A stretch of 63,222 nucleotides of DNA, filler included, from Sluysia triapertura (taxonomy: Eukaryota), in assembly GCA_046118255.1 (NCBI GenBank). It is 5 parts of 5 records of this genome, joined end to end, with 100 filler letters (N's around TTAATTAATTAA, not from the genome) between each part and the next. Parts side by side here need not be neighbours in the genome. Positions count along the whole stretch, not along the records: positions 48,875 to 63,222 come from JBJNIA010262617.1; 4 more parts are not named here. The stretch is one strand, 5' to 3'. The first letter of the stretch is position 1, and every line of letters starts with the position of its first letter. Under the pieces are notes generated by a model. That model searched no databases. It saw only the letters and a list, made by a program, of their open reading frames with translations, and had not been told where the DNA came from. The position numbers and the translations under genes were made by a program. Shown in pieces: positions 10,998-63,222 of the stretch.

Positions 10998-11097
10998 NNN
11001 NNNNNNNNNNNNNNNNNNNNNNNNNNNNNNNNNNNNNNNNNTTAATTAATTAANNNNNNNNNNNNNNNNNNNNNNNNNNNNNNNNNNNNNNNNNNNN
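10998..11097. other. Artificial contig spacer N44-TTAATTAATTAA-N44
   Basis: Stop codons in all six frames, flanked by N. Repeated at 24200-24299, 35636-35735 and 48775-48874. Confidence 0.98.
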
Positions 11098-24080: not shown

Positions 24081-26044
24081 AGTTATGGACGAAAATAAAC
24101 TTCGTACAATGTATTGTTGGGTTAAAAGGCCTAAAAGTGCCATTTGGTAAAATTGAATTTAATAAAAATGAAATTGTTAGACGGGACTGATAGCTCAGTN
24201 NNNNNNNNNNNNNNNNNNNNNNNNNNNNNNNNNNNNNNNNNNNTTAATTAATTAANNNNNNNNNNNNNNNNNNNNNNNNNNNNNNNNNNNNNNNNNNNNG
24301 AGGTGTTATGATTGTGAATTATTATTTTATGAGATCTGTAGTGTTGTGATTATGAATTAAGGAGTATGGCTGTTGAAAAGGTTGTTTTTATTAAGATTTA
24401 TTTTAATTTAAGTTATTAAAGTTGACCACTACAAATATTTTTGTATGATCACTTCGATAACAAAAACTTGTTGATAATTGTCATAATTTATTAATAGAAA
24501 ACTTTTATACAATAGAGATTACTAGAGTAATAAATATTGTACAATTAGTTCAATAAAGCTCAATAGTAAACAATTTTCATATAATGTTTATAATAATAAT
24601 AATATTATTATTATTAAGATTAATGTTACTTAACAATGATTTTAGAATTATCAATCTATCTGTAAATTAAATGGTTAAGAAAAATGATTTACACAATGAC
24701 TTTTATTATAGTTTGTCTACACTATTATTTATTTCGTGTGAAAATCTTAATGTAATAAAATTAACGATAGTATATATATAGAACCAAATACTAAACATAA
24801 TTTTTATGTATTTTTTAATTTAAAAACAAAGTACTATTTTTTAGTTTAAGAAAGTATTTAAAACAATATATTAATTTTGTGATTTAATATATAATAAAAT
24901 AGAGCATTTAATATTATTAATAAAACAAAATTCATATAATATATATAGAATTTTCAGATTGCATGAACTAAAATTTTGCAAAATTATTTTCACCATAAAT
25001 AATAAACGTATTCATGTTTGAGGTCAAATGTAATTGAATTGTGGTGCATCTTAAAAATATCATGTTAGATATGAATGATAGATCGTTTAATTTAATTCCA
25101 AAAATATTTATTATTATTCTAATTATCATTATTATTATTGCATAGTTATTATTGCACTTGTAAGCGTGTGAACTAATAATTAAGTGTGTATGTAGGGAAA
25201 ATATAAAATTCATCACACTTCATCACATTAAAACTTCTCATGGACACATAGAACATTAAAACATTGAGTCATTCAAAAAACATAATCATCGTACATAATT
25301 ATCACGAACAATAGGTATTGTTATTACAAATCCAATCGTACTTAAATATATAATAATTATTATGATTATTGTCATATAATAACTTCTATAAAAACATCAT
25401 AATATCATCAAATCATCATGTTAAAATATAATAATGACATCGTTATTATTAATTATCTTATCTTTATCATCAACTTTTCTTCTTATTCTTATGTTCGTCT
25501 GAACTTGTATATATTTATGTATATTTATGCATGTGTGTATCTAAAAGGTATATGTCAGAAAAACAGTTGTAGTACTAACATTTCCTAAGATACAGCAGAA
25601 TCAAGTATCACTTAAAACACAACTCAAAGAAGTAATATATGAAGAAGAAGAAGGACCGAAACGATTACCGTGTGTTAAGCCTTAAATATCAGAAGATCAA
25701 TCACCGTGTGAAATTTATAAAAAATTAGAAGCAAATGCAGTACAAAGACGTAAAACAAGTCAAATAATGTCTGTATTACTAATCTTGGAAGTAGTTGGGC
25801 GAATAGTTTAGAATTTGGTGCTTTAATACATCATCAGAATCATCATCCTCAAAAAATTCAACATTATCTCTACCACGATTTTTTGTATTTACCTATTTTT
25901 ACCCAAAAGTTGTATATTTAGATCTAGTATGAGCTAAAAGAAAATTATACCATTAAATAAATTTAACAATTACACGTATACTGAGAAAAAATGGTTTAAA
26001 AAAATATTTTTCAAACAAAAATTTTAATACATTCAATAATTATG

Positions 26045-47775: not shown

Positions 47776-48874
47776 GTATAGAAATGATTATCCAAATTAT
47801 TTTTATTCAATTATCGACAAAGGAAAATATCTTACGAGTGAATTTGAAGATATGTTAAGCTTCTCGGAATTTTTATGAATTATAAATGTATAATAATGGA
47901 TCAAAATAAACAACGGCAACGTAAGATGTTTCATATTTAATTACTGAGATTAGAAATGGCCAACAAAATTTTTAAAATGATTGAAATTAAAGATAATGCC
48001 AATTAAGTTAAGCAAATTCATGAAAATGTATCATTTTTAACTGATAAAGAGATTGAACATAAGGTTAACTAGATGATTGAAATTAAAGATTATGTCAATA
48101 AAATTAAACAGATCCATGAATAAATACTGATTATAATTGATACAGAGATCGAACATGACTTTAACAAAATAAACGAGTTCGAAGACAAACCTAAAATAAA
48201 GAAAGCCATCCAAGAGAGTAATCAATATAGAAAATAGAAACAAGTTAAGAAATCGATGTTTAGTTCCGTTGGTTTATTGAAACAAATGCTTATGAAATTG
48301 AAGTTAAAGAATGAAGTATGTCCTTTTAATTCTGTCTGTTTTATTTTATCTGTCTTATTCATCATAACTATGGTTTCTCAATAAGTTTTGTATTATCTAA
48401 AATATATTTAAAGTTTATGGAAAATATATTAGACTTTGTTTATTATGTTAATTTTATATTTTTTGAAAGTTTTACTATAATCCATTCTTATAGAATTACC
48501 ATTACTAAATATAATTTTTTAACAATAATTTTATTAAATAATTTTATAATAAGTATAAATAAGACAAATATATATCCTTTCTTGGCTAATTAAGTATAGC
48601 AAACTAAATTCTTACTTCTTTTTCTTTTATTATTGTGGAATGTATTTATCAGTTGTTTCGTTTCCTTTTTCAAAATTTCAAGTTCTTATTGCGTTTGTTG
48701 AAGATAAAAAGTTATTTATTTTATTAAATAATTATTTATTATTAAAGTTATTTCCTTACAATATTATTATAGATNNNNNNNNNNNNNNNNNNNNNNNNNN
48801 NNNNNNNNNNNNNNNNNNTTAATTAATTAANNNNNNNNNNNNNNNNNNNNNNNNNNNNNNNNNNNNNNNNNNNN

Positions 48875-49513
48875 CTTCATTTTCTTGACACCCCCTCCTT
48901 GGAGAGAGAACGTGTCGGAGATCCCACCGACTAATCCTAGTCTCTTAGGCTCCTCTGTAGATGCATGGAACGCCCTCAACGGACTGTAGTACCGGCGCAC
49001 CTGCCACCCTTTTGCTCCTGACACATGGATGAGTGTCCCCTCCATGAATTTATCCTCACAGGAGGGACAGTACCTTAGAAGGGTTCCATCCCATGTACAG
49101 GCGCAGTTGTGGGGCTTCACTCCTTGTTTGTCCCACTGGGTGATCATTGCCACTCTTGGCAGCATTTCAACACGGCACCTTCCACACACATAAGCATCCA
49201 TAACTTTCACCGGTTTGTGGACCAAACCTTTGAATTCTGTTCTTGGGTTCTCCTGGCTCTTAGGCCTAATTCGTCCGGGGCCTTCCCAGCGAACCACCAA
49301 TTCTGCCTCTCTTAGGCAGATCACGCAGTTATTTTTTATCTCTCTCCATTCTACTGTTTCTCTCTCGGATGACAGGTATCCTTTTCTGGCATAAGCCAGA
49401 GTAATGAGGGCCCTTCCTGCCAAAAGACCACTCGTGGTTCTCCGAAGTGTGACCAGCCCATACACCGTGGCCAAGCGGAGGTAGGCTGGCTGGTCGCTGA
49501 GTTCGTTGGCCAT
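48875..49513 (-). CDS. orf3, Cys-rich protein after pol (213 aa visible, runs off the contig end)
   Basis: ATG 4 nt after the pol stop. Motifs CVIC, CGRC, HNCAC, CPSC. Confidence 0.7.
48883..48926 (-). promoter_or_regulatory. Second copy of the PPT/att box (AAGGAGGGGG then TGTCAAGA)
   Basis: 44 of 44 nt identical to 58332-58375. Confidence 0.9.
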
Positions 49514-49517
49514 TCTT

Positions 49518-52500
49518 TTAATCCTGGTTCTCCTTAGTCGGAATTGGTTTAAGCTGTTCCACTCCTTGGATTCCTCTCTTCTCTAGTAGGACAGTGTTTC
49601 TGTCGAGTATTTCAACCACTGTGTCTACTTCTTCGTACTTAGGCTTAACTGCTGATGACCCAGGCTGCTCTCGTGCCTTTATCCATACCTGTTGTCCGAC
49701 ATGGAATGAGGTCGGGGAGGGAGATCGCTCCTCCTTATCCTTCCGGCCCCTCCCACTCTCTTCCGTCACAAAGGGGCGTTGATTGAGCTCCTCTGAGGGG
49801 GAGGGTCTACCGGCTCGAGGCCTATCATTCAGGGCTTGTGCAATCTCCAAGGCCTTAGTGCTCCAATCCTTACTGTTAGCATTTTTTGCTATCCAGTTTT
49901 TGATAAGGCCTATTGCACGTTCAACTACCCCGTTGGCTTGAGGTGTATAAGGTGGCGAATAAACCCTCATTACCCCATTTTTCTCGCACCAGCGATTTAC
50001 CTGAGCATTTTTGAAATGTGTCCCATTGTCTGTTCGTAGCTCTTTTGGGAGGCCCAGGCTACTGCATACCTGGTCCAGCATGGACACAACGCTGCTCCCA
50101 TTAGCTTTCCTTACTGGTTTGACAATAACATAACCAGACTTGGAGTCCACTAGCACTAGGAGGTATTTTTCTCCCCTCTTACCAGTGACTCCCATCGGGC
50201 CGGCCACATCCATACACACTGATCCCCACGGTATGGTGCTCTTTATGGTCAGCCCTTCTGTCCGTTTTCCTCTTCTCCCTGCGTTATGTTTCCCGCAGGT
50301 TTCACATGTCTGTAGCTCTTGACAGACTCTTTTCACCGGAATCCAGAGGTCCAGCTTTTCCAATTCCTTACGTGTGGGTAGTACTCCGGCATGTCCTAAG
50401 GCCTCATGCACAGACTGTACTACCTTACTCACGTATTCTTCTGGGACCCCTCTTCCCTTGGGGGTTCTGTCCCACTTCTCTCCTCCTATAAGGACAATTT
50501 TTCTTTGTTGTACAAAGAGGTCTATTTCATTATTACCTTTCCAGTAGGCGCCCTGCTTTGTGTGCGCCTTTTGGTGCTGTATTTCCAGGTCTAAATTCAT
50601 TCTCATTTCGGCGATTTTCTTCCATAGGTCATGATGTGCGATTAATTTCCCTCGTGCTGATTCAAATCCATTTTCTTCCCAAATGGACAAATCTTCTTTC
50701 AGAGCTTGGGCGCAGTAGTAGCTGTCTGTAACAATTTTAGCTGCCTTGATTTTTCTTTTCGTGAGCTCGAGCAGACCTTCTAATATTGCAGTTACTTCAC
50801 CGGCTTGTGCGCTCCCTTGAACGCGCCCTTTTTGCCGGTGACATTCTTTGTCGTTTAACTTCAGGATGAACCCCCAATAGGCCGTTTGATCCGGTCCTTT
50901 TCGGGATCCATCTGTGTACAGAGTCCATTCATATTTCTTTTCCTTGACTTCTTTGGTTGTTACCTTCTTTTCGGCAGGTTGTGTTGGGCCAATTTCGAGA
51001 TCAGGGTCTAACAGGATATCTTCCCATCGCCCCCATCTTGTGTTGGTGGCTTTAGTGCTCTCTATGGTGCCTTTTCTCAGGTACTTATGTACCTGACTCT
51101 GGGTTATCACCTTTATCGGCTGTCCTTGGGCTAGGTCCTTCAAGGTGCCCCAATATTTAGCTAAGACAGCCAATTCTTTTTCTTCTTGGGGAAATTTCTT
51201 TTCCACGGGTGTTAGTGTGGTACTCCACAAGGTTACTAATCCACCTTGGTCGTTGCTGACTTTGACCATGGCGTCTTCACCTTCACATACAATTTCAGCC
51301 ACTAATTTGGAGGTTAGGCTCCTTGGTTCGAGCCTAACTGCATCTTGGATTACCTCTTTTAGTTTTTCCAGGTCTTGCTGGTTAGTTGTCGTCCAGCTCC
51401 AGGCTTTCTTGGGATTTACACCTAATTCTGTTTCCCTTTTCTTTAGACAAGCATATAGAGGTTTTGCATACTTCTGGTATCCTGGTACATGGTCACGTAC
51501 ATAATTGCAGAGCCCTAATATTTTTTGAAGGTCATTCTCATTCTTCGGTGGCTGGATTTGATGTATTTTTTCTCTGAAGCCTTCTGAGAGTCCCAAGTCT
51601 GTTGTTACTTGGAATCCCAGATAGTTGACTTTGAATTGACCGAATTGACATTTTGCTAGATTGAGCTTCAATCCTGCAGCTGAAATCCGCTCCACCACCT
51701 TCCTCAGCTTCTGTAGGTGTTCTTCTTCGGTGTCATCTGCTATGAAGACATCGTCAATGTACACAGAGGCTCCTATGTCTCCCAGAACCTCTAGTACAGC
51801 TGATTGAAAGACATTTGGGGAGTTTTTGTAGCCTTGTGGCAGTCTTTGCCAAACATAGCTTTTACCTTTGTGAGTAAAAGCCGTTTTGCCTTGGGACTGC
51901 CTCGCGAGCCTCAGGGAGAAGAAGCCATTTGCTAGATCAATGCAGGATTTATACTTTTTAACTTTTAACGTTTTCAGGGCTCCTTGGGGGTTGATTAGGC
52001 TGGCCCTGTTGGCAACTGTTCTTCTGTTCAGCGCCTTAAAATTAATGACAGGTCGCCAACCCCCTCCTGCGGACTCTGGCTTCTTCACCGCTTGAATAGG
52101 GCTGTTAGTTATAGGGTTTGTCTCTTCTCTGATGATCCCGAGTGCACTCAATTCTCTCACGATTTTATCCATCTCTTCTACAGCACCTGGATTTAGCGGG
52201 TACTGTCTCACTGGTGGGTGCACTCCTCCTTCTATGTGATGGATGAATCTGGGACCCAAATCTCCACAATCATTTTTAAATCTTGCAATTTTCGCAGCTT
52301 CAATTATATGTCGGAGCTCCTCTTTTCCAGCCGGGGAGAAGTCGCTGTCCTTCAACTTTTGTTCCGTTACTTCTGGTATATTTACAGTTTTGTACCATTC
52401 TTCTTTGAGTTTTTCTGTGTTGGTGGGGCCCAGTTTAACAAGTCTTGATTTAAGGATCGTTAGCCTCTTTACTTTTGTCCCTTTGGTTTTTCCTGGTTTG

Positions 52501-52763
52501 TTTAAGACTTCTAAGTCGCTTACTGTTATTAAGTTATATGGGCCTTTTATCCAAATTATCCCTTTCCAAAATCCGTATGGCATTTCTTCAATTGAACCAT
52601 TCGCTAGCTGAACGGTTAGGTGTCCTTCGGTTCTTAGGCTTTTCCGGGTCATTGACACCTCTGCTCCTGTGTCCACCTGGTAAGGGACTCCACTTACTTT
52701 AGTGTAAATTTCGTCCCCCTCCCAGTAGGCATTCTCCAGTGTGACCCGGGGCCTTCGAGCCAT
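49518..52763 (-). CDS. pol: Pol polyprotein: protease, RT, tether, RNase H, integrase
   Basis: DTGA; IDLANGF (DLANGF as in foamy RT); LPQGYKNSP; YIDD; RNase H YTDGS/AGE/TDSYY/GNNEID; integrase H-x4-H...CxxC and D, D(35)E (MDVAG, TDNG, VER). Confidence 0.98.
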   Translation of the reverse strand: MARRPRVTLENAYWEGDEIYTKVSGVPYQVDTGAEVSMTRKSLRTEGHLTVQLANGSIEEMPYGFWKGIIWIKGPYNLITVSDLEVLNKPGKTKGTKVKRLTILKSRLVKLGPTNTEKLKEEWYKTVNIPEVTEQKLKDSDFSPAGKEELRHIIEAAKIARFKNDCGDLGPRFIHHIEGGVHPPVRQYPLNPGAVEEMDKIVRELSALGIIREETNPITNSPIQAVKKPESAGGGWRPVINFKALNRRTVANRASLINPQGALKTLKVKKYKSCIDLANGFFSLRLARQSQGKTAFTHKGKSYVWQRLPQGYKNSPNVFQSAVLEVLGDIGASVYIDDVFIADDTEEEHLQKLRKVVERISAAGLKLNLAKCQFGQFKVNYLGFQVTTDLGLSEGFREKIHQIQPPKNENDLQKILGLCNYVRDHVPGYQKYAKPLYACLKKRETELGVNPKKAWSWTTTNQQDLEKLKEVIQDAVRLEPRSLTSKLVAEIVCEGEDAMVKVSNDQGGLVTLWSTTLTPVEKKFPQEEKELAVLAKYWGTLKDLAQGQPIKVITQSQVHKYLRKGTIESTKATNTRWGRWEDILLDPDLEIGPTQPAEKKVTTKEVKEKKYEWTLYTDGSRKGPDQTAYWGFILKLNDKECHRQKGRVQGSAQAGEVTAILEGLLELTKRKIKAAKIVTDSYYCAQALKEDLSIWEENGFESARGKLIAHHDLWKKIAEMRMNLDLEIQHQKAHTKQGAYWKGNNEIDLFVQQRKIVLIGGEKWDRTPKGRGVPEEYVSKVVQSVHEALGHAGVLPTRKELEKLDLWIPVKRVCQELQTCETCGKHNAGRRGKRTEGLTIKSTIPWGSVCMDVAGPMGVTGKRGEKYLLVLVDSKSGYVIVKPVRKANGSSVVSMLDQVCSSLGLPKELRTDNGTHFKNAQVNRWCEKNGVMRVYSPPYTPQANGVVERAIGLIKNWIAKNANSKDWSTKALEIAQALNDRPRAGRPSPSEELNQRPFVTEESGRGRKDKEERSPSPTSFHVGQQVWIKAREQPGSSAVKPKYEEVDTVVEILDRNTVLLEKRGIQGVEQLKPIPTKENQD

Positions 52764-55700
52764 TACTCAGCCGCTCCCCTGGTTCCCTGTTGACGGGAAT
52801 CTCTCAGGGCAGTCTTTTGTTCTGGAGTCAATTTTTCCCACTCTTCTCTTGGCAAGAATGTACTTTTCTTTTGTTGATTCTGCGGGGCATTAGGAGCTGA
52901 GAATCTCCTTGGTGTGGGTTGGGATCTCTGAGGCTGTTGTCTAGGTGCTGGCCCAGATATAGGTGCCCTACTTTGGGGCGTGGCGGGCTGCTTTACAGCC
53001 GCCTTAGTTTGTGGTCTTTGGTTCTGGGCTGACCCTTGCTCCCTTCTTTGTTCAAAATACTGGTGTTCCAGATCATAGGATGTGACTGCCGCATCTATCT
53101 GGGAGAGCTTGGTGCCATGTATGGGCATTTTTACAAAGGTGAGTTCTCCTCTCCGCCCCTTGGTCACCATCCTTAGGGCTTTGACATACCGGGACGGGGG
53201 AATGCTCTGTTGCAGTTGATGCCACACCGAGCGTAGGCGTAACCCCTTGTCCAGTCGTTTTCTGGCCCTTTGGATTTGGGCGTCTTCTTCGTCCTCATCC
53301 TCCAGGACCAGCCTTTCATAATGCTCCTGGGCCGTTTCGTTTTTGTTTATTGGCACTGCAGAAATGTGAGAGAGCCATAATCTTTTAGCCCCCTCACTTT
53401 CTGTGGAGCTGCTCACCAGGGGCCACACATCTTTGATGTAGCTTTCTTCCCCCTCCTCTGGTCTCCTTTCTCTTATCAAGATTTTGATCTTTTTGTACTC
53501 TCTGAAGTCATCCGCCTGTGAGCTGGCCATTTTGATGTTTTTATCTGGTTCTGGTTCAGGTTTAACAGAGACATTAGATGGGGGGTTGTATTCATCCTCC
53601 TCTTCCAGGAGAATGTCCTCATTTACCTTTCTTTCTGTTTCCTTGGCATAGCCATAAGCGGCCTTCTTCATTTTCCTTAACAGGACGTCGTGTGCGATGC
53701 CCATATAAGCCAGTCTGAAGTTCGCCGTTATGGGCTGACAGGCTGCGAGGGTAGGAAAAGAGGGCATCATGAGGATGTTAGCCCATTCCCCTACAGTGGC
53801 TTTAACTTTCAATTCCACCTGTTCTTCTACTCTCCCCTGCCACACAGGTGGAATGTCATAGTCTCTTTGCCCTGCTTCGGGGACATAGGCTTTCCGCTCG
53901 TCGATGGTTTGCAGAGGTCCCCATACTAGCTCTCTGGCCAGTCTTTCGGAGGCCCGGAGGACATCAAACACTTCCACCTGCTTTTTCGTCCCTTTCCGTT
54001 GAGCCATCCGAAGCTGCTTTCGGACAATCCCAGTCTGGGCCGCTACCGACCCCATGCTCATGTCATCATCGGAGTCATTGTCACAGGTGTTTTCCTGTGC
54101 TCCCTCCGGATTTCGGTCCTCCACACTCTCTAGGTCCTCACGTTCCAGTCGTTCACACTCATTCAGGGGTTTCATTTTCACTGGGGCGCTTAGCATCAGT
54201 CCTTGCCCTTGTTGTTGATTTACCTCACTCATTTCTTCAACTCCGGGGCCGCAGTCCTGTTGGTGCCACGCCGTGGACTGGGACGGCTGAGGGGATTGAT
54301 AGTCGCGGGGTCCCCACTGTCGTTCTTGGTCACCCTCAGGACTGTCGGGCTTGGCTGGCTGGCTGAGTTCTTTTGGTCTAGGTTCTTGCCTGTTTAGTGG
54401 CGGTAGGGCCCGATTTAATCGGTCCTGATACAAGTTTGTGGCTGTCACCACCACAATTTCCTTCAAGGATCCTGCCACATGCATGATCTTTGCGGTGTAA
54501 TTCATGGACTGCACAGCCACTTTTTCCGCTACTTCCCAGGGTAGATCATTGGAGCGCAGGCCACACACGCAGAGCACCACTCTCCTGAAGCCTCTGCTCA
54601 TGGCCTCATTCAAACCCCTTTCAATGACTTGCAGCATGAGTTTTTGATACTTGCTTAGATCATATTCATTTTGGTAGGGGATTATCGGCGCATGGATGAC
54701 AGCATAATATGGGAGGTTGGCCCCACTTGTGAGTTTTACTTCATCATCCTCTTCACTCTTTTTCTCTTGTCTCAGCTCTTTAATTTCTTTTTGGTATTCT
54801 TTGCCAGCCACTTTGGACAATTTTTTCCTGAAATTGGTGTTGAGGATCTTGTAATTGGGGTTGGTGAAAACCAACAGTCCGTCTCCTTCAATTTCCCAAG
54901 GGTCACCTATGAACTGACACAGGCGCATCCCGTTTTGCATCTTTATTATCTTGGCTTTCACCGGTATTGGGGCTAGCATGGCCTGCATCCCCAAATCCAG
55001 TGTCGCCAGATTCCTCTTTTTGTCCAGGGGCTTCACATAATCGGTTAGGGGCCTTGGGGATTTTTTGTAGCTTGGCCCGGCTTGGTGGTAATCAGCCAGT
55101 ACCACTTTGTCTTCCTCTTGGGGGTCTTCCAAGCTGGTACTTTGGAACTGATAAGTTAGTTGCTTTACTGCCGTAGGGGTTTTTCTTGTATATTCTTTCT
55201 GTTGTTCTTTCATCATGCTTTTCAGTCTCTCCATTCCTGTACGTGAAAAGGGGTCCTGGGGCTCTTGCGGGGTTGACTTATGTCTATGAGGGGCCTTTTT
55301 CCCTTCATTTACCATTTCAAAGGAGTCTGACACCGGGGGGCCCCGGATGGGTCTTGGGGCCCTCTCCCGGGACTCCTCCATCTGCCGTTGAAAGGCCTCC
55401 TCTTTTTGGGGATCAGCCTCGGCGTCATCAGTCCTAAAGGGATTGAGGGGACCCTCTTCTGAGTCACTTATCTCAATCACGACTGATTCCACCGGCTCCC
55501 CGATGCCCCCATACCTCTTGTGGTCACTTTCTCTGTTTCCCTCATCGTGCCGCTGCTCTTCACTCTGCGTCGGCAACTCACATTGGCTGATTTGGTCTGC
55601 GTCCAGTGGAACGTCCTCTATTTTTTCCCTTTGATACTCAGCCAGCTGGTCCCAGAACTCTTGAAACTCTGCATACCGGGGGGCTGCTTTGGTCTTGGAG

Positions 55701-56161
55701 TTTACAAGGACATACTGGAGACCCGTAGCCTTAGCAGTCATTTTTACGACCGCGTCGTATTTTTCTGCTGGGCTTATTAGGGTCCTTATCCTTCTGTCCT
55801 TCCAGGCCATTAGCAGGCCTGTCCACCATTCCAGCCACTCCCTGATGCCGTCCCTTTTGTTCAGTTTGAGGGGATGCTTGACCACGGCCAGCCTCGCTCC
55901 AGCATAGGCTTTTGGACCTACATACGCCTGGTGGTCTCGCATGTAATCCTCCAGCTGCCGTTGGGCCTCAGAGGGGTCAAGTCGCACGTGGTAGATGACC
56001 AGTGTTCCTTTTGCTTGGGGGTTCCATTCATGGCTCCCCTCGCCGTAGAGCATTACCTGGTAGGGGAGATTGACCTCAGCCTCCGCGTTCCCGCGGGATC
56101 TTGATAGCTGGGTCTCATCCCCTACTCCTTTCCATTCCTCATCCGATAGCGCTTCTGCCAT
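52763..56161 (-). CDS. gag: Gag-position polyprotein (1132 aa from the first ATG) with an internal macrodomain
   Basis: Lies between the PBS and pol. First ATG at 56161 in ACGATGG context (the ORF track starts at an upstream TTG). No CCHC knuckle; Q/P/R-rich tail. Macro-like segment at ~54435-54930. Confidence 0.85.
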   Translation of the reverse strand: MAEALSDEEWKGVGDETQLSRSRGNAEAEVNLPYQVMLYGEGSHEWNPQAKGTLVIYHVRLDPSEAQRQLEDYMRDHQAYVGPKAYAGARLAVVKHPLKLNKRDGIREWLEWWTGLLMAWKDRRIRTLISPAEKYDAVVKMTAKATGLQYVLVNSKTKAAPRYAEFQEFWDQLAEYQREKIEDVPLDADQISQCELPTQSEEQRHDEGNRESDHKRYGGIGEPVESVVIEISDSEEGPLNPFRTDDAEADPQKEEAFQRQMEESRERAPRPIRGPPVSDSFEMVNEGKKAPHRHKSTPQEPQDPFSRTGMERLKSMMKEQQKEYTRKTPTAVKQLTYQFQSTSLEDPQEEDKVVLADYHQAGPSYKKSPRPLTDYVKPLDKKRNLATLDLGMQAMLAPIPVKAKIIKMQNGMRLCQFIGDPWEIEGDGLLVFTNPNYKILNTNFRKKLSKVAGKEYQKEIKELRQEKKSEEDDEVKLTSGANLPYYAVIHAPIIPYQNEYDLSKYQKLMLQVIERGLNEAMSRGFRRVVLCVCGLRSNDLPWEVAEKVAVQSMNYTAKIMHVAGSLKEIVVVTATNLYQDRLNRALPPLNRQEPRPKELSQPAKPDSPEGDQERQWGPRDYQSPQPSQSTAWHQQDCGPGVEEMSEVNQQQGQGLMLSAPVKMKPLNECERLEREDLESVEDRNPEGAQENTCDNDSDDDMSMGSVAAQTGIVRKQLRMAQRKGTKKQVEVFDVLRASERLARELVWGPLQTIDERKAYVPEAGQRDYDIPPVWQGRVEEQVELKVKATVGEWANILMMPSFPTLAACQPITANFRLAYMGIAHDVLLRKMKKAAYGYAKETERKVNEDILLEEEDEYNPPSNVSVKPEPEPDKNIKMASSQADDFREYKKIKILIRERRPEEGEESYIKDVWPLVSSSTESEGAKRLWLSHISAVPINKNETAQEHYERLVLEDEDEEDAQIQRARKRLDKGLRLRSVWHQLQQSIPPSRYVKALRMVTKGRRGELTFVKMPIHGTKLSQIDAAVTSYDLEHQYFEQRREQGSAQNQRPQTKAAVKQPATPQSRAPISGPAPRQQPQRSQPTPRRFSAPNAPQNQQKKSTFLPREEWEKLTPEQKTALRDSRQQGTRGAAE

Positions 56162-56336
56162 CGTGTTCCTGTCCTTATAGAAGTCGTTGGTCTCCAAAAG
56201 TCTCCTGGCCGCGGTTCCAGGTCAGAGATGGGAGCCAACTGTTGTTTGGCTACTTATCCCACTCTTTGGGGGCGTATGCCACGCCCAGTGGGATCCTCCT
56301 TCCCCTCCTGCGTGCCACGCAGTTCCTGTAGGGGTC

Positions 56337-56362
56337 GGTGACCAGCGGCCTAGCTAGTCACC
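56337..56362 (-). promoter_or_regulatory. Candidate dimerisation/packaging hairpin
   Basis: GGUGACUAGC-UAGGCC-GCUGGUCACC: 10-bp stem with a GGCC palindrome in the loop, located between the PBS and gag. Confidence 0.55.
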
Positions 56363-56479
56363 TTGCGATCCGCTTCCTTTGCTTGCTGATCGCCGCAGTC
56401 GATTCCAATCGACCGTTTCCTTTCCTGGAGGGTTTCCACCTGTCAGAAAAGACACTGAGGGTCCCCTAAAACCTTTGGG

Positions 56480-56497
56480 GTCCCTGTTCGGGCGCCA
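56480..56497 (-). promoter_or_regulatory. Primer-binding site, tRNA-Lys3
   Basis: TGGCGCCCGAACAGGGAC, the same 18-mer as the HIV-1 PBS. Confidence 0.96.
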
Positions 56498-58339
56498 TAA
56501 GACTATCCTCGTGTTAGCACAGTCTTCAGTTTACCTGTAAAACACACAAGTCTAAAAACTGTACAAAATGTTGTCACTCCTCCGTCTCTGGGGTTAGGAT
56601 GTTCTTCAAACGCGGACAGGAGGTTCCTGATCCACTGATGAGAGCACCTGCTCGAGTGACCTGGGGAGAGGGGCTTATCCTAGCAATGGCTGCATTCATC
56701 TGTAGGATATATCCCTGTTTCATTCAGATTAAATACCTCTTACTGAGTAGCCTGGCCGAGAGGATTCAATCCAAAGATCCTACATTCACTGCAGTCCCCC
56801 TCAGTGATAGCTGCACTTGTTACCGGCTAGGAAGTATTTAGTAACTTGGATTTAAGTTACTGGGATATTATTTTAAATTCCTTAATCTACTAAGGCAACC
56901 GATAAGATTAACAATTCTTTTGATGTTGTGAACTCAGTTTTACCATTTACCACATTTATTTAGGGATCATTACTCCCATAGACATTACTTCAATCATTGA
57001 ATGTCCACACATGATAATTTAGAATTTTAAAATGCTTTGCTTTTATTAGCTTTGCTTTTAGCAGGGGGTTATATGGTTACAAATTGTCATTGCAATACAT
57101 AAAAATGTTAACAATCTTGATTAATAAATTCACTCTTTCCCTAAGCTGAATAACCATAAAATAAATCAAATGAAAATTCGTTCGAATGAGCTCAGAGCTA
57201 GGGAGTGATCAACCATTACCTCAAGTAGTTGACTCATCCTAGAAGCAACTTCAAGCTTAGAAGCCCTCCAATCTTTAGATCAGCAGGATGGACGATGGGT
57301 TCTTCCTCCTTAAAGTGCTACAGCCTGTTGCTGCTGATCATGAGCTTCTGTCTTGAAATCCGTTGCTGTAATTCAAACTCTGTGCCTCTGCAAGCACCAG
57401 TTTTTCCAGCTTCTGAGTTCTCCAATCCTTTCGAACTCAGATCCTCTTCAGTTGGTGTCCTGATGGCTGCATCTGTTGCTGAGCACTGGAGTGAAGTTCG
57501 GGGTAGAGCCGATGAAGCACCCCGATGAAGAACCGGGCTCTTAAGCCATACAGTCCTTTTTATACTATTAAATTACATGAGTGTGTATGTGCTGTACTTC
57601 ATGCACCAATCATTTAGTTTTTGCATTACCTCAGTTTGCATCAGCCTCAACTTGTAACAATTTGGTTGGTCAAGGTCTCTCAATCTCCTCCCAAATGAGC
57701 TCATCCGACACTTACAACATTTCATACTTTCCCATTATCTCATTGTCATCCTTTTAACTGATAAAACACATTTAGCAATCATCTTTGTCCTTCTATGGTC
57801 AAAACTAATTACTTCGTTTTAAAGTTTACCAAAATCAAAACTGATTACATTGTGTAAAATCATTCTTTCATAACTCCTTATAATCATCTTCACACAGTGA
57901 TCAAAACATTCTTAAAACATTCTGTCTAAGAGTAATACAATGATTTACTACAGTGATAAGTTCATTAATCAATCAGTTACCCCTTTTTAAGAGTAATACA
58001 ACCATTCATAAAAATCATAGATCATAAATCAGTTACTTTATCTTCTAATGTTTTATTATAAGAAAAGGAATATAGTTTTGTCAAGTTCTGCTAAGTTCTG
58101 CGTTGCCTGCTGCTCAGCTCCTGCTTACTTTCAGTTCCTCAATTTGGCCGCGCAGAGGTCTGACTCACCCTGCATCTGGAATGTCCCTATCTTCTCCTAC
58201 TCATGATCTCATGCGTGTGGCAATATCACAACCGTTATATTCTCCAACATGCATTTTATTCTTATATACAACTTTTAGTCTCTTTTTTCCCTCCGACACG
58301 GAAATCTCCAACCTTCTCATGTTCTCCACTATCTTGACA
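56498..58339 (-). repeat. LTR (~1.84 kb), single copy in the window
   Basis: Starts TGTCAAGA right after the PPT and ends at the PBS. TATAAAAA at 57557-57564; AATAAA at 57042-57047 and 56955-56960. No second copy is present to confirm the boundaries. Confidence 0.82.
57557..57564 (-). promoter_or_regulatory. LTR TATA box
   Basis: TATAAAAA with an inverted CCAAT ~45 nt upstream (57606-57610). Confidence 0.7.
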
Positions 58340-59710
58340 CCCCCTCCTTGGAGAGAGAACGTGTCGGAGATCCCATCGACCAAACCGAGATGGTCGTCGT
58401 TGGTGTGGAGAGCGGCTTCTAGGAGATTTCTCGGAAAGATCACCTGCATCCATGCGGGACGAGACTGTAGGTGGAGAACGGGATGAAGAGCGGGGCAGAG
58501 ACCCGCGGTCTTGTCCAAGTACCGACTGAGAAGGCCAATCCCAGCCGTTCCTGCGGTACCAGGAAGCCGGGGCTGTAGGGGAGGTAGGGCGTTGCAGAAA
58601 GCGACGGTCAAACCAGGTAGAGTTGGACGAGCGTCGTTTTGATTTCTTTCTTGAACGAGTACCTGGGGCTCGGGAACTTGCTGTGGCATGGGGTTGAGCT
58701 GGTGTAGGGGGGGCCGTGATGTCGGATGGCGCAGGAGAAAACACAAAGGCATCCGCCTGTAGTTCCCCATCCTCACGCTGTTCCTCACCCTTCGTTGGAG
58801 TGCTAGGGGGAGTTACAGGGCCGCTGTTGTCTATCAGGGTCGCCTGTTGCAGCGCTGCCACAGCTGCTCTGGTTTCGTCGTCAGACGGAGCGGGTACTGG
58901 GTCAGGCGAGGCGACCGAGGACTTATCACCAGCGCAGGGGATTGACTCCGGAGAGCTGACAGGACTTAAGTGTTGGGTTGATAGAAACACTTGCCTATTA
59001 GAATCAGTGGCCGGTTGACAATGGCTGTGGACAGGGTCAGGTCCCAACGGGTGAGTGTTAGGGCCATCCAGAGAGTCCTGCTGTGGGCGGTCGGTGCATA
59101 CCAGTGGTGTGAAGACTGGATCGTCGAACATGTCCAGCCAGTTAGAGGGAAGGGGTTGGAAGTCTTCCGCTTTGATGGTGGGCTGAGGCTGTAACATGGA
59201 AGCCAGAGCGCCAGGTTGCTCAGGTGAATGCGTTGAGCCGGCTTCGGAAGTTAGAGCCGGGGACGAACCTGAGATGCTGCGGATGGCCACCATTGTGTCA
59301 GACAAGGTGTGAAGACTGACATAGACCTCCTCCGTGTTGTGGGCCCTCCACACTTTCTGCGTCAAGGGGACGAGCAGGCCGTTGCTCCCCATAGATGGAA
59401 TACTGGGGCAGCTAACTGGATCATCCCAGGAGGAACACCACAGCAGACCACAATTGCGTTGCACCGCTCCACAGGTTTCAGCCGGGACTGTCGGGCCATC
59501 GTACAGCGCTCCACGACACAGGATGGAACTGGCCAGGGGATAGGCAAAAGCGCTGTTGTAGCATTGGTCACACCAGTATGCATGTCGATAACCCCACATG
59601 AATGGGTGCTTGCCAGCAGCAGAGCGACAGAGTCGACATGAAACGCTGAGAGCCTGTAACATAACAGAACTTGAACAGAAAATGCCACACAAAATCAAAA
59701 AGAAAGTCAT
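58262..59710 (-). CDS. Accessory protein: Cys-rich N-terminus, S/P-rich middle, basic NLS and RS-rich tail; overlaps U3
   Basis: 482-aa ORF with CRLC, HAYWCDQC, RSRKKSKRR and KSPRSRSP. Candidate splice acceptor TTACAG|G at 59654. Confidence 0.75.
   Translation of the reverse strand: MTFFLILCGIFCSSSVMLQALSVSCRLCRSAAGKHPFMWGYRHAYWCDQCYNSAFAYPLASSILCRGALYDGPTVPAETCGAVQRNCGLLWCSSWDDPVSCPSIPSMGSNGLLVPLTQKVWRAHNTEEVYVSLHTLSDTMVAIRSISGSSPALTSEAGSTHSPEQPGALASMLQPQPTIKAEDFQPLPSNWLDMFDDPVFTPLVCTDRPQQDSLDGPNTHPLGPDPVHSHCQPATDSNRQVFLSTQHLSPVSSPESIPCAGDKSSVASPDPVPAPSDDETRAAVAALQQATLIDNSGPVTPPSTPTKGEEQREDGELQADAFVFSPAPSDITAPPTPAQPHATASSRAPGTRSRKKSKRRSSNSTWFDRRFLQRPTSPTAPASWYRRNGWDWPSQSVLGQDRGSLPRSSSRSPPTVSSRMDAGDLSEKSPRSRSPHQRRPSRFGRWDLRHVLSPRRGCQDSGEHEKVGDFRVGGKKETKSCI
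58340..58349 (-). promoter_or_regulatory. 3-prime polypurine tract
   Basis: AAGGAGGGGG immediately before the TG that starts the LTR. Confidence 0.88.
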
Positions 59711-59779
59711 AAAAGCAGACTGTCCCTATATATATATATATATGAATCAAAAATGCACATGCAGCGAGAGCCTATATAA

Positions 59780-61255
59780 TTAAGAATCATTATTCTGTCT
59801 GCGTTGGCGGATGGATCTGAGCCACACAGAGTCAAGAGGAGGCGAGGACTCAGGCGGAGGTGGTTCATGTAGGGCCGCTGCATCAGTGAAGAAGGTGGCG
59901 TAGGTCATGAACCAGGCAAGGATAGGCATTTCACTGATCAAACCTAACCAGTACAGGACTGCATAGATTCCCCAGACTGAGCCCCAACAAAGCAGGGCTA
60001 TGAATTTCAGCAACCACTTGTGCTTCAAGTGGCCTTTCAGGGCGCAGATTTGTCTGCCGATGTAGAAGACCACCCCTGCTGCCAACAGAGCTTCCCAAAG
60101 GGCCAGGAAGATGCGTTCAGGGGTGTAACGGCCATGGGGCTGTAGGGCATGAGGGAGTCTGACCAGCTCAATGATCATGATCAGGCTGTCAATCAGAACC
60201 CAGGACCCCAGCATTCCCATCTGGATCATGTTGAGTTTCACCCGGCCCTGCATGTAGGTTATGAAGAGGGGTAAGGCCAGCTCTTGCTTTTTGGCCAAAC
60301 CATAGAGGATCAACTTCAGGTAGCTTTGTCCAGCTGTGAAGAACCGCATGGGTTGATAGTAGGTCCAGATCCCGGAGTGGCAGTAACAGAACCAAGCGAA
60401 CAGCAGAGTGTAATACTCAGCTGTGGTAACTTCAAATGGGGTCGGCCCGGTCTGATCTTTGTCGGGGAGGGTTTGGTTGATTACAATGGTTCTTCTGCTG
60501 CAAACTTCTGAGTCTGGCAGCTCCGTTGAGTTATTAGAATCGTCACCCTCCCCTGCAGACCGTCGTTCAGGCACTGACCCGTCTTCATCGCTGGTCTGAT
60601 TCCCAGGGATAGGGGCTGCAGGACTCGGGTCCGCCGGTGGCTGGGTCGGTGCGGCAGATAAATCTAAGTCTGCTTCCGACGAGCCGACCTGTCCAGACCC
60701 TTCCATTTCAGGACTCGGGTCCGCAGGTGGCTGGGTCGGTGCGGCCGATGAATCTGAGTCCGCTTCCGACAAGCCAAACTGTGCAGACCCATCCTCGTCC
60801 CCGATGTCAATCCTTGGAGGGATGAGGTTGGTCCTGTCCGCCGCTGAGGGAGAATGTCCGTGTGAAGAGTCAGGCGTGCCGGACTCATTCAGCTCGGCTT
60901 GGCCAACCTCAGGGGCTTGGTGCCCAGGGACCGGGTACAACCGGGTCGACTCTTCTTGTGGAGAGTCAAGACCATGGGACCCAGTCCGGTTGGGAAAGCC
61001 GTCCTCAGCAGCTGAGCGATCATGTCCTTGGTGCACAACTGCGGGAGCAGGGGTTGCTGGAGGCGGGGTTGTTGCCTCGTCGTAGTCATCGTAGTCATCC
61101 GCCGCAGCTGCGTCCAAGGCCAGACGCAAGAGCGCGTCTGAGTCTGAGGAGTTGGGATCAATTGCGGTTCCCGAGGGTCCGGTATGTTGCTCCAGGTCCC
61201 CTAGGGTGAAAACAGAGATCATGGCAGCGATGATACTCACAGCCCGTAGGTCCAT
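59780..61255 (-). CDS. Accessory membrane protein: signal peptide, acidic mucin-like stalk, about 5-6 TM segments
   Basis: 491-aa ORF starting MDLRAVSIIAAMISVFTLG; ~250 aa rich in D/E/S/P/T; several hydrophobic segments in the last ~210 aa. Confidence 0.8.
   Translation of the reverse strand: MDLRAVSIIAAMISVFTLGDLEQHTGPSGTAIDPNSSDSDALLRLALDAAAADDYDDYDEATTPPPATPAPAVVHQGHDRSAAEDGFPNRTGSHGLDSPQEESTRLYPVPGHQAPEVGQAELNESGTPDSSHGHSPSAADRTNLIPPRIDIGDEDGSAQFGLSEADSDSSAAPTQPPADPSPEMEGSGQVGSSEADLDLSAAPTQPPADPSPAAPIPGNQTSDEDGSVPERRSAGEGDDSNNSTELPDSEVCSRRTIVINQTLPDKDQTGPTPFEVTTAEYYTLLFAWFCYCHSGIWTYYQPMRFFTAGQSYLKLILYGLAKKQELALPLFITYMQGRVKLNMIQMGMLGSWVLIDSLIMIIELVRLPHALQPHGRYTPERIFLALWEALLAAGVVFYIGRQICALKGHLKHKWLLKFIALLCWGSVWGIYAVLYWLGLISEMPILAWFMTYATFFTDAAALHEPPPPESSPPLDSVWLRSIRQRRQNNDS
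60621..60800. repeat. In-frame 90-nt tandem duplication
   Basis: Two GGACTCGGGTCCGC... units at 60621 and 60711, encoding GS.Q.G.SEAD.D.SAAPTQPPADPS. Confidence 0.92.
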
Positions 61256-61371
61256 GGCTTTGGGTAGGTATTGATGAAAAGTGGTTTGGGGATTTCAAGC
61301 GAGAAGTTTCTTCGTCCTGTGCCTTCCTTGTCCTCAGCCCGAATGCCTCTCCGTCCTCCTAGACTGTGCTT

Positions 61372-63222
61372 TTATGTGCGGCCAGCGCCCTGCTCTGGGA
61401 GGAGGGGCTCCTGGCTCCTCCCCCCTGGGCGTGACATTGTCTGGAGTCCCACCTTCAGGGCTATCTTTACAGTTAGCACAGCTGCAAAGATGCCTGCGAC
61501 CGCTAGGCAGTACGGCCACAGTTTTTCAATCAAAGTAATGGCCCAACTTTCCACCGCATTTGCTGCTTCACCCAAGACTTCAACAGTGTCATGGGCCAGG
61601 TTCTTGACATTGCGATAAGTGGAATGGGTCAAGGTTTCATACCACGCACATGTGTGGCGGTCGGTGTCAGGTCCGCATTTCTTCCAAACTTCTTCTGGGT
61701 ACTTACAGGTCAGATTTGAGTAGAGCAGGTTGGGGCCTACCCATTCAAATCCTGTGGTCTCTTTCCCCAGACAGAGGCCGCGTCGGAAGGCATGGCCCTC
61801 CGCTAGAGCTATCATGGAGTCTTGTACACCGGGTAGGATGACCTGCACAAGGCGTTTCCGATGTCTCAGGCGATGCCCAAGAATTCCATTAATACAGAGG
61901 TGGAACATCGGGAAGGAACGTCTCCAAGTGACATTGTCCGCAGTGCGGTCCCATACAACCTCAGCTACATGGGTGTCATACTCATTGTTGTAGAAACTGT
62001 TGCAGTAGCTTTCCCAGCCGGGCAACTCAGAGCACGGTCGTCGTGCCAAACTGACAGTGCAGGAGTGTTCATTTTCACATTCCATTCTCCAAGGTCGTGG
62101 GTGAACATACCTCTCAGGGCGATATATCGCTGTAGACCAGATGTCGTGTTCTTTTGAATACACAGTTGCAATGTACTGATATTTTACCCAATAGTTGTTG
62201 GAGAGGGATAGGCAGGGGAACACCCAATGTTCCATCTCTTCACGTTGGAATCCCCACCAAGTCCTAGTGACATCCCGCTTGTGACCTTCAATCCAGCCCT
62301 GGAGCAGTTCTTTGGTGGTATTAGATGATAGGATGCCACTGCAATCGTACCTCCATGTTGAAACAAAGGAGATATCGACTTGCCACAGGCGGCATCGAGG
62401 AGAAGCTCCATTAGCTATCCATTCTGTGTCATTAAGGCTGTTAAAGATGCGGTTTGCTACGCATTTGTCGATCTTCTGGAAGTCGCCTTGAGGCACGTGT
62501 CTTAGGTCGTCTGGTGTGGGAATTTTCTGGATGTACATGTCAGAGTGGTAGGGGCCTTGGAAGCCATGATGGGTACGTGAGTATCCCTCTGCGAAGTCCC
62601 CTTCATAATGGAGCACCTGGTGCTCAATCCACACCCAGGGAAAACTCGCATTGAGCCAATCTTCATGCATTGCATTGGTAGGGCCAAAGGTGGCCCTCCA
62701 GGTAAAATAATAATAACTCTGAAACCACAAAGGGGTAATTACCATGTAGTTCGTTTTCTTGCATGTAACCCAGAGGTTCCACAGGCATGGTGATAGGGGC
62801 TTAACTTTAGCTGCGCAGGCTTGGTCGTCCGGGTTTGTGAACGAGTTAGACCGATGAATCACCCGCGGTTTTTGCTGCTTGGGGACTGGCCGGTGCTTGG
62901 AATGGTTCGCGCTTCTGTTAGCCAGTAGAATATTAATGTGTTGAAAGTGAGCATCCACAGCCAGAATAGTGTCATTATGGGGCAGGCGATTTGGTTTCTT
63001 GACTGTATGATGGATGACACTAGGCTTGGTTCTACTCACGTTTTTTGGAGGTATTTTATCGCACGTCAGGTTGTAGTAGCCCCAAAAATCCCATCTTGGA
63101 AGAATGGTAGTGCAAACAATGTGTTTATGGGGAGCACCATACACAACCTCTCGTTGCCAGTAGCCTTGATGATTAAGGCCCGGGAGGGGTGTACATCCCC
63201 AGTCACAGTGCCACTCAGGAGA
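61372..63222 (-). CDS. Env-like type I membrane glycoprotein, 5-prime truncated (at least 616 aa)
   Basis: The frame stays open to the window edge. About ten N-x-S/T sequons, Cys/Trp-rich, basic cluster RLRHRKR, C-terminal TM (YCLAVAGIFAAVLTV) and a short tail. Confidence 0.75.
   Translation of the reverse strand, partial: SPEWHCDWGCTPLPGLNHQGYWQREVVYGAPHKHIVCTTILPRWDFWGYYNLTCDKIPPKNVSRTKPSVIHHTVKKPNRLPHNDTILAVDAHFQHINILLANRSANHSKHRPVPKQQKPRVIHRSNSFTNPDDQACAAKVKPLSPCLWNLWVTCKKTNYMVITPLWFQSYYYFTWRATFGPTNAMHEDWLNASFPWVWIEHQVLHYEGDFAEGYSRTHHGFQGPYHSDMYIQKIPTPDDLRHVPQGDFQKIDKCVANRIFNSLNDTEWIANGASPRCRLWQVDISFVSTWRYDCSGILSSNTTKELLQGWIEGHKRDVTRTWWGFQREEMEHWVFPCLSLSNNYWVKYQYIATVYSKEHDIWSTAIYRPERYVHPRPWRMECENEHSCTVSLARRPCSELPGWESYCNSFYNNEYDTHVAEVVWDRTADNVTWRRSFPMFHLCINGILGHRLRHRKRLVQVILPGVQDSMIALAEGHAFRRGLCLGKETTGFEWVGPNLLYSNLTCKYPEEVWKKCGPDTDRHTCAWYETLTHSTYRNVKNLAHDTVEVLGEAANAVESWAITLIEKLWPYCLAVAGIFAAVLTVKIALKVGLQTMSRPGGRSQEPLLPEQGAGRT

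What the first reader, a model, noticed from the sequence alone, without database searches (positions are those of the whole stretch)
54435..54930. Macrodomain embedded in a retroviral Gag
Seen: FIGDPWEIEGDGLLVFTN...LSKVAG...VKLTSGANLPYYAVIHAP...LNEAMSRGFRRVVL...LKEIVVV follows the macro-fold pattern (GD, D-x-x-V-x-x-N, AG, T-x-x-x-x-LP-x-x-x-VIHA) over ~165 aa. Known: macrodomains of coronaviruses, alphaviruses and HEV counter PARP-mediated ADP-ribosylation, and textbook Gag proteins lack them. The NAAN, GGG and GIF loops appear here as VFTN, LNTN and GLRS. Inference: a captured domain, probably not a hydrolase, that would be packaged at Gag stoichiometry as a decoy, binder or structural module.
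Basis: partly seen in the sequence, partly recalled or inferred. Interest (0 to 1): 0.82.

Follow-up and report, generated by a model that had tools for sequence, protein, structure and literature searches.

The report
Disarmed macrodomain inside fish retrovirus Gag
A group of foamy-like retroviruses of bony fish carries, in the middle of its main structural protein Gag, a captured macrodomain (a fold that normally binds or removes the ADP-ribose marks used in antiviral defence) whose binding pocket has been rebuilt, so it probably now serves as a non-enzymatic docking module.

The parts
54407..54964 (-). Macrodomain, Gag residues ~400-585; complete 7-strand/5-helix macro fold with a re-lined ADP-ribose cleft
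   Evidence: Pfam, PDB phmmer, AF2, Foldseek and VIA, site table
52763..56161 (-). gag ORF, 1132 aa, intact, no CCHC zinc knuckle and no PTAP/PPxY/YPxL motif
   Evidence: lies between PBS and pol; homologous to ORFs annotated gag in AciFLERV/AliFLERV
55616..56074 (-). N-terminal alpha/beta domain of Gag (residues ~30-182); same order of ten secondary-structure elements as the macro fold from strand 3 onward; fold not identified
   Evidence: AF2 secondary structure; no profile match to the macro domain, to Pfam or to PDB sequences
53027..53974 (-). Helical capsid-like region (residues ~730-1045)
49518..52763 (-). pol (PR-RT-RNase H-IN), intact, with its own ATG overlapping the gag stop (TAATG)
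   Evidence: best solved relatives are foamy PR-RT, E ~1e-80 against 2e-32 for the next family
56480..56497 (-). Primer-binding site (lysine-tRNA type; the assignment is recalled)
56498..58339 (-). LTR (~1840 nt, between PPT and PBS)
   Evidence: begins with the same 8 nt as the AliFLERV LTR
58340..58349 (-). Polypurine tract preceding the LTR
48875..49513 (-). Cys-rich accessory ORF after pol, running into a second PPT and LTR start at the contig end
58262..63222 (-). 3' part of env (61372-63222) and two accessory ORFs (59780-61294, 58262-59725) upstream of the LTR
   Evidence: named by position and hydrophobic segments only, no Pfam match

Best explanation
An ancestor of the large-genome percomorph foamy-like retroviruses captured a cellular macrodomain of the macroH2A/PARP14-like kind into gag, in frame, between the N-terminal domain and the capsid region, with disordered linkers on both sides (fold, position and linkers shown; donor class inferred from structural ranking). 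The domain has since been inherited with the capsid region (shown). It is not a hydrolase and probably does not bind ADP-ribose in the canonical way. The Ile whose backbone NH reads adenine N1 is Pro, the phosphate-facing Ala of NAAN is Phe/Val/Leu, the glycine loop is N-x-K/N, the pyrophosphate-loop Gly is Arg, and the distal-ribose aromatic is absent (substitutions shown by alignment; loss of binding inferred). The re-lined cleft (W422, N441, F444, R536, W542) is conserved, so the most likely job is a new, non-enzymatic binding site for a host protein or a phosphate-bearing ligand. Pol is a separate ORF and foamy-type Gag is largely uncleaved, so the domain would be present once per Gag in particles and stay with the incoming core, where it could steer trafficking or chromatin tethering, or mask the core from PARP-type sensors (inferred; no ligand identified).
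For: Fold. Linkers: pLDDT <50 at most of 185-384 and 589-722. Co-inheritance: macro identity correlates with capsid-region identity, rho 0.69 (35 pairs) and 0.73 (15 pairs); mean macro identity 31-38%, against 39-45% for capsid and 27% for the N-domain. Present in 14 of 21 N-domain proteins with >=120 further residues and in 9 of 10 capsid proteins with >=120 preceding residues; two exceptions are deletion junctions and the rest may end too early. Pocket: P421 24/28, W422 26/28, F/V/L432 30/33, N441 29/33, F444 33/33, R536 32/36, W542 32/35; >=2 Gly at the GGG site 0/33, Gly536 0/36, aromatic 538 0/36, Ala433 1/33. The roles of these sites come from passages of PMC7729036. Cleft positions are more conserved than the rest (0.66 against 0.50, 23 against 153 sites). 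Separate pol ATG. Low cleavage of foamy Gag: PMC5210030 section 3.4.
Confidence: 0.55

Rival explanations
1. Non-catalytic ADP-ribose or poly(ADP-ribose) reader or decoy, like macroH2A1.1 or PARP14 macro 2/3 (their properties are recalled). The domain caps or sequesters ADP-ribosylated host or viral targets, with Arg536 and Trp422 replacing the backbone and stacking contacts.
For: Closest folds are macroH2A and PARP14; the T-N ending of the NAAN-site motif matches macroH2A; GD, N/D434, H440 and G534 are partly kept and the cleft is conserved; ligand-bound forms rank first.
Against: Pro at the adenine-N1 backbone site, a bulky residue facing the phosphates, and no glycine in either loop. PMC7729036 expects even Ala-to-Val at the phosphate-facing site to destabilise binding.
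Confidence: 0.22
2. Purely structural module: a stable globular spacer or lattice element in an uncleaved Gag, with the cleft plugged by its own side chains.
For: The invariant replacements are large residues that could fill the pocket; surface charge is not conserved; macro folds without ligand roles occur in aminopeptidase N-domains and mitoribosomes, which appear among the fold matches.
Against: The domain lies between long disordered linkers with no confident inter-domain packing (pTM 0.43). Conservation close to that of capsid, including polar N441 and R536, is more than a spacer should need.
Confidence: 0.17
3. Active ADP-ribosyl-hydrolase countering PARPs, as in coronavirus, alphavirus and HEV macrodomains.
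For: Same fold; weak NCBIfam similarity to protein-ADP-ribose hydrolase, 19.6 bits against a cut-off of 272; the last NAAN position is N or D in 26 of 33.
Confidence: 0.04
4. Artefact or passenger: a chance motif match, a recent host insertion in one copy, or an ORF that is not Gag.
Against: 51 of 152 proteins carry the domain at 26-70% identity; codon and base composition are like the rest of gag; the Zoarces homolog has the locus tag next to a related pol; the same motifs occur in two published Gags.
Confidence: 0.02

Closest known systems
Teleost foamy-like ERVs of the large-genome type (AcERV/AciFLERV, AliFLERV, LcERV; PMC5210030, PMC5512871)
   Same: gag length (3399 nt against 3342-3411 nt reported), Lys-type PBS, ORF between pol and env, accessory ORFs after env, TAATG gag/pol junction as in AciFLERV, no Cys-His box; their Gags contain the same macro motifs
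   Different: [quoted passage not shown] This contig is permuted or deleted, not a full provirus.
macroH2A macrodomain; PARP14/PARP9 macrodomains; GDAP2
   Different: Cleft re-lined (GDPW, VFTN/D, NxxF, GLRS); no histone fold or PARP domain; sits in a viral polyprotein
Viral MacroD hydrolases (coronavirus Mac1, alphavirus nsP3, rubella, HEV, megalocytivirus)
   Different: Those are active non-structural enzymes with NAAN and GGG; this one is in the structural protein and lacks them
Macro-domain ORFs of epsilon-like teleost ERVs (Basta et al. 2009, seen only as cited in PMC4977317)
   Same: Macrodomain capture by fish retroviruses
   Different: Described there as additional ORFs in epsilon-like elements; here it is an in-frame Gag domain in the spuma-like lineage. 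The original paper was not held, so the exact position in those elements is unchecked.
Gag of Rhinella marina ERV (UniProt A0A2U9K508, 873 aa)
   Same: Best viral structural match to the whole model, E 6.5e-10, TMq 0.15, the value that macro-only matches reach
   Different: Epsilon-like. Whether its match is a macro domain or capsid was not resolved.

Membership tests
Macrodomain superfamily (PF01661) | Profile score above the curated cut-off | tested here: met
   37.1 and 41.3 bits against 22; 12 of 98 family members match at E<=0.01
Macrodomain superfamily (PF01661) | Seven-stranded mixed sheet with five flanking helices | tested here: met
MacroD-type hydrolase | NAAN motif with invariant second Ala | tested here: not met
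   VFTN; Ala433 in 1 of 33
MacroD-type hydrolase | Triple-glycine catalytic loop | tested here: not met
   0 of 33 rows with two or more Gly
MacroD-type hydrolase | Pyrophosphate loop with Gly and distal-ribose aromatic | tested here: not met
   Gly536 0 of 36, aromatic 538 0 of 36
MacroD-type hydrolase | Hydrolase activity | not testable with these tools
   needs an enzyme assay
ADP-ribose-binding reader (macroH2A1.1 type) | Adenine-binding Asp followed by a residue with a free backbone NH | tested here: not met
   Asp 13 of 28, next residue Pro 24 of 28; role from PMC7729036
ADP-ribose-binding reader (macroH2A1.1 type) | Binding of ADP-ribose | not testable with these tools
   needs ITC or a structure
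macroH2A-derived | Phylogenetic nesting within macroH2A | not tested
Teleost foamy-like ERV (percomorph clade) | Pol closest to spumaviruses and to fish FLERV Pols | tested here: met
   foamy PR-RT E 1.6e-80 against 2e-32 for the next family; 56-77% identity to 16 of 22 hits, every named one of these 16 from a percomorph fish; sister to the Poecilia Pol in a quick, unfinished tree without foamy reference rows
Teleost foamy-like ERV (percomorph clade) | Very long gag without Cys-His box, separate pol ORF, Lys PBS, GGGTG PPT/LTR border | tested here: met
   the tRNA assignment of the PBS is recalled
Teleost foamy-like ERV (percomorph clade) | Paired LTRs, target-site duplication, complete gag-pol-env order | tested here: inconclusive
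   one full LTR and a second LTR start; the contig ends at a linker and at the window end
Retroviral Gag | Capsid fold | tested here: inconclusive

The most novel reading that the evidence does not exclude
The N-terminal half of this Gag is built from two macro folds: a highly diverged one in place of matrix (residues 30-182 show the same ten-element order) and the recognisable one. The re-lined cleft is a specific site that lets the incoming core mimic macroH2A or engage PARP-pathway components, for chromatin tethering or for evading ADP-ribosylation-based restriction. With the cane-toad ERV Gag match, macrodomain capture into Gag would then have happened more than once in retroviruses.
Probability: 0.2. 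Interest if true: 0.85.

Novelty: new variant of a known kind. Interest (0 to 1): 0.65.

Why it matters
It gives the first recognisable domain I could find for the unusually long Gag of the largest known retroviral genomes, and accounts for about 190 of its extra residues. It puts a macro fold in a structural protein rather than a replicase or accessory ORF. It also shows a whole viral lineage keeping a catalytically dead macrodomain under near-capsid conservation. If the domain has a partner, it points to ADP-ribosylation or macroH2A-linked chromatin biology as a pressure on fish retroviruses, and the question can be tested on a single 190-residue domain.

Tried and rejected
Single-sequence AF2 of the domain was poor (pLDDT 42) and was not used. 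The word-index search with full Gag found 0 of 7878 candidates, a sensitivity failure, since one search found 157 relatives. A second macro fold in the N-domain got no support from hhalign (probability 3% or less), cross-HMM, Pfam, PDB sequences or the Atlas. The capsid-region profile against PDB gave no match. No late-domain or zinc-knuckle motifs were found. Macro-less Gag candidates P0070 and P0113 turned out to be deletion junctions to an accessory ORF and to pol. No close cellular donor appeared among the 150 listed of 157 hits. Atlas look-alikes were archaeal macro proteins at 0.92, not taken as evidence of transfer. Basta et al. 2009 was not held, and the supplement of PMC5210030 could not be searched. 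Two amphibian/anamniote papers said nothing on a macro domain in RMERV.

Full report
Context. The window is a concatenation of contigs joined by N44-TTAATTAATTAA-N44 linkers. The last piece, 48875-63222, is 49% GC against 24% for everything before it. It holds, on the minus strand: the 3' part of env, two accessory ORFs, a PPT, an LTR (58339-56498), a PBS (56497-56480), gag (56161-52763), pol (52763-49518), one more ORF, and a second PPT with an LTR start at the contig end. No host flank or target-site duplication is visible. Pol is closest to foamy virus PR-RT among solved structures (E 1.6e-80; next family 2e-32). It is 56-77% identical to 16 of 22 listed relatives, and those of the 16 that carry a name come from Poecilia, Syngnathus, Zoarces, Knipowitschia, Scophthalmus, Larimichthys, Anarrhichthys, Scortum and Xyrichtys. 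A quick, unfinished tree of 17 rows, without foamy references, puts it next to the Poecilia Pol. It belongs to the large-genome teleost foamy-like ERVs.

It is a lineage-wide Gag domain. A full HMMER search found 157 relatives and listed 150. With the query and the Zoarces protein added, 51 of 152 carry the macro domain, comparable to 41, 54 and 55 for the other three domains. It is present in 14 of 21 proteins that have the N-domain plus at least 120 further residues, and in 9 of 10 that have the capsid region plus at least 120 preceding residues. Of the 8 without it, two are deletion junctions to an accessory ORF or to pol. The other six have only 129-150 residues on the relevant side, within the spacing seen elsewhere, so they are inconclusive. 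Pairwise macro identity tracks capsid identity (rho 0.69 over 35 pairs, 0.73 over 15; pairs not independent) and lies between capsid and N-domain in level. A full-length homolog from Zoarces viviparus (VZT92_022920, 32% over 823 columns) has the locus tag adjacent to a related pol (VZT92_022919), and carries the automatic UniRef name 'Macro domain-containing protein'. Only 12 of 98 members reach Pfam E<=0.01, which may explain why earlier domain searches missed it.

The pocket. I mapped sites by sequence alignment to Capsaspora macroH2A and to a designed protein with a GD/NAAN/GAG macro scaffold, and took their roles from passages of PMC7729036. Across 27-37 rows per site: the adenine Asp is kept in 13 of 28, and the next residue, which donates a backbone NH to adenine N1, is Pro in 24 of 28. 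The phosphate-facing NAAN position is Phe/Val/Leu in 30 of 33, and the invariant Ala is Ala in 1 of 33. No row of 33 has two glycines in the catalytic loop. The pyrophosphate-loop Gly is Arg in 32 of 36 and Gly in none, and the distal-ribose aromatic is absent in all 36. The replacements are not decay: W422 26/28, N441 29/33, F444 33/33, R536 32/36, W542 32/35, and the 23 cleft sites are more conserved than the other 153 (0.66 against 0.50). Against a complete loss of binding: G419, N/D434, H440 (17/33) and G534 partly survive, ligand-bound macroH2A structures rank slightly above apo ones, and no coordinates were inspected. Whole-domain charge is not conserved (-9 to +7 in 13 domains), while helix 1 is usually basic.

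A lead. The N-terminal domain (30-182) is confidently predicted as alpha/beta, with the same order of ten elements as the macro fold from strand 3 onward. Five sequence-level tests gave no support, and it could not be folded and searched alone. The best viral structural match to the whole model was the Gag of the epsilon-like Rhinella marina ERV (E 6.5e-10), which may hold a macro domain too; this is unverified.

What is known. PMC5210030 (passages and sections 3.3-3.4 read; supplement not searchable) reports gag genes of 3342-3411 nt and no conserved-domain matches, with no use of 'macro' for a domain. The review PMC4977317 (passages) says epsilon-like fish ERVs occasionally have additional ORFs encoding macro domain proteins, citing Basta et al. 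2009, which I could not see. PMC12690878 and bioRxiv 2021.11.23.469661 (passages) say nothing of it. Ten full-text searches, nine of them on this question (one search was on pocket residues), returned no report of a macrodomain within a retroviral Gag. The library lacks most subscription papers and Repbase-type records, and unseen supplements could bear on this.

Verdict. Real, lineage-wide and apparently undescribed as a Gag domain, but macrodomain capture by viruses, including fish retroviruses, is known. New variant of a known kind; interest 0.65.

Noticed in passing
window 55616-56074 (-): The Gag N-terminal domain has the same order of strands and helices as a macro fold lacking its first two strands; it may be a second, far-diverged macro-like domain in the matrix position. 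No sequence support.
   Followed up: partly
window 48875-48940 and 58324-58389: Two PPT plus LTR-start sites, 89% alike over 66 nt. The downstream unit reads LTR-PBS-gag-pol-ORF-PPT with no env, and env and accessory genes lie upstream of the LTR: tandem related proviruses with an internal deletion, or a permuted assembly.
   Followed up: partly
window 52762-52766 (-): The gag stop overlaps the pol start (TAATG), also seen in the published AciFLERV; it could allow termination-reinitiation instead of, or besides, a spliced pol mRNA.
   Followed up: no
window 59728-59742 (-): TATA-like run about 65-80 nt before the first ATG of the last accessory ORF; possible internal promoter as in foamy viruses.
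   Followed up: no
window 59780-61294 (-): Accessory ORF with a signal-peptide-like start, a Pro/Ser/Thr-rich stretch with a 90-nt repeat, and several hydrophobic helices; PMC5210030 reported no TM motifs in accessory genes.
   Followed up: no
window 52784-52864 (-): Conserved short helical motif at the Gag C-terminus (residues ~1100-1126) after a Q/R/P-rich linker, in place of a zinc knuckle.
   Followed up: no
window 56498-56510 (-): The LTR ends in TA, not the usual CA, directly before the PBS.
   Followed up: no
window 10998-11097, 24200-24299, 35636-35735, 48775-48874: N-run linkers (the last one read as N44-TTAATTAATTAA-N44) join separate contigs. The ERV contig (49% GC) is unrelated in composition to the 24%-GC contigs before it, probably fish-derived DNA in an assembly of another organism.
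   Followed up: partly
P0078, P0082, P0107, P0140, P0147: A divergent subgroup of the macro family with a coiled-coil-like N-terminal part and no hit to the N-domain.
   Followed up: no
BFVD hit A0A2U9K508: The cane-toad ERV Gag outranks all stand-alone viral macrodomains as a structural match; it may be an independent macro-in-Gag case.
   Followed up: partly
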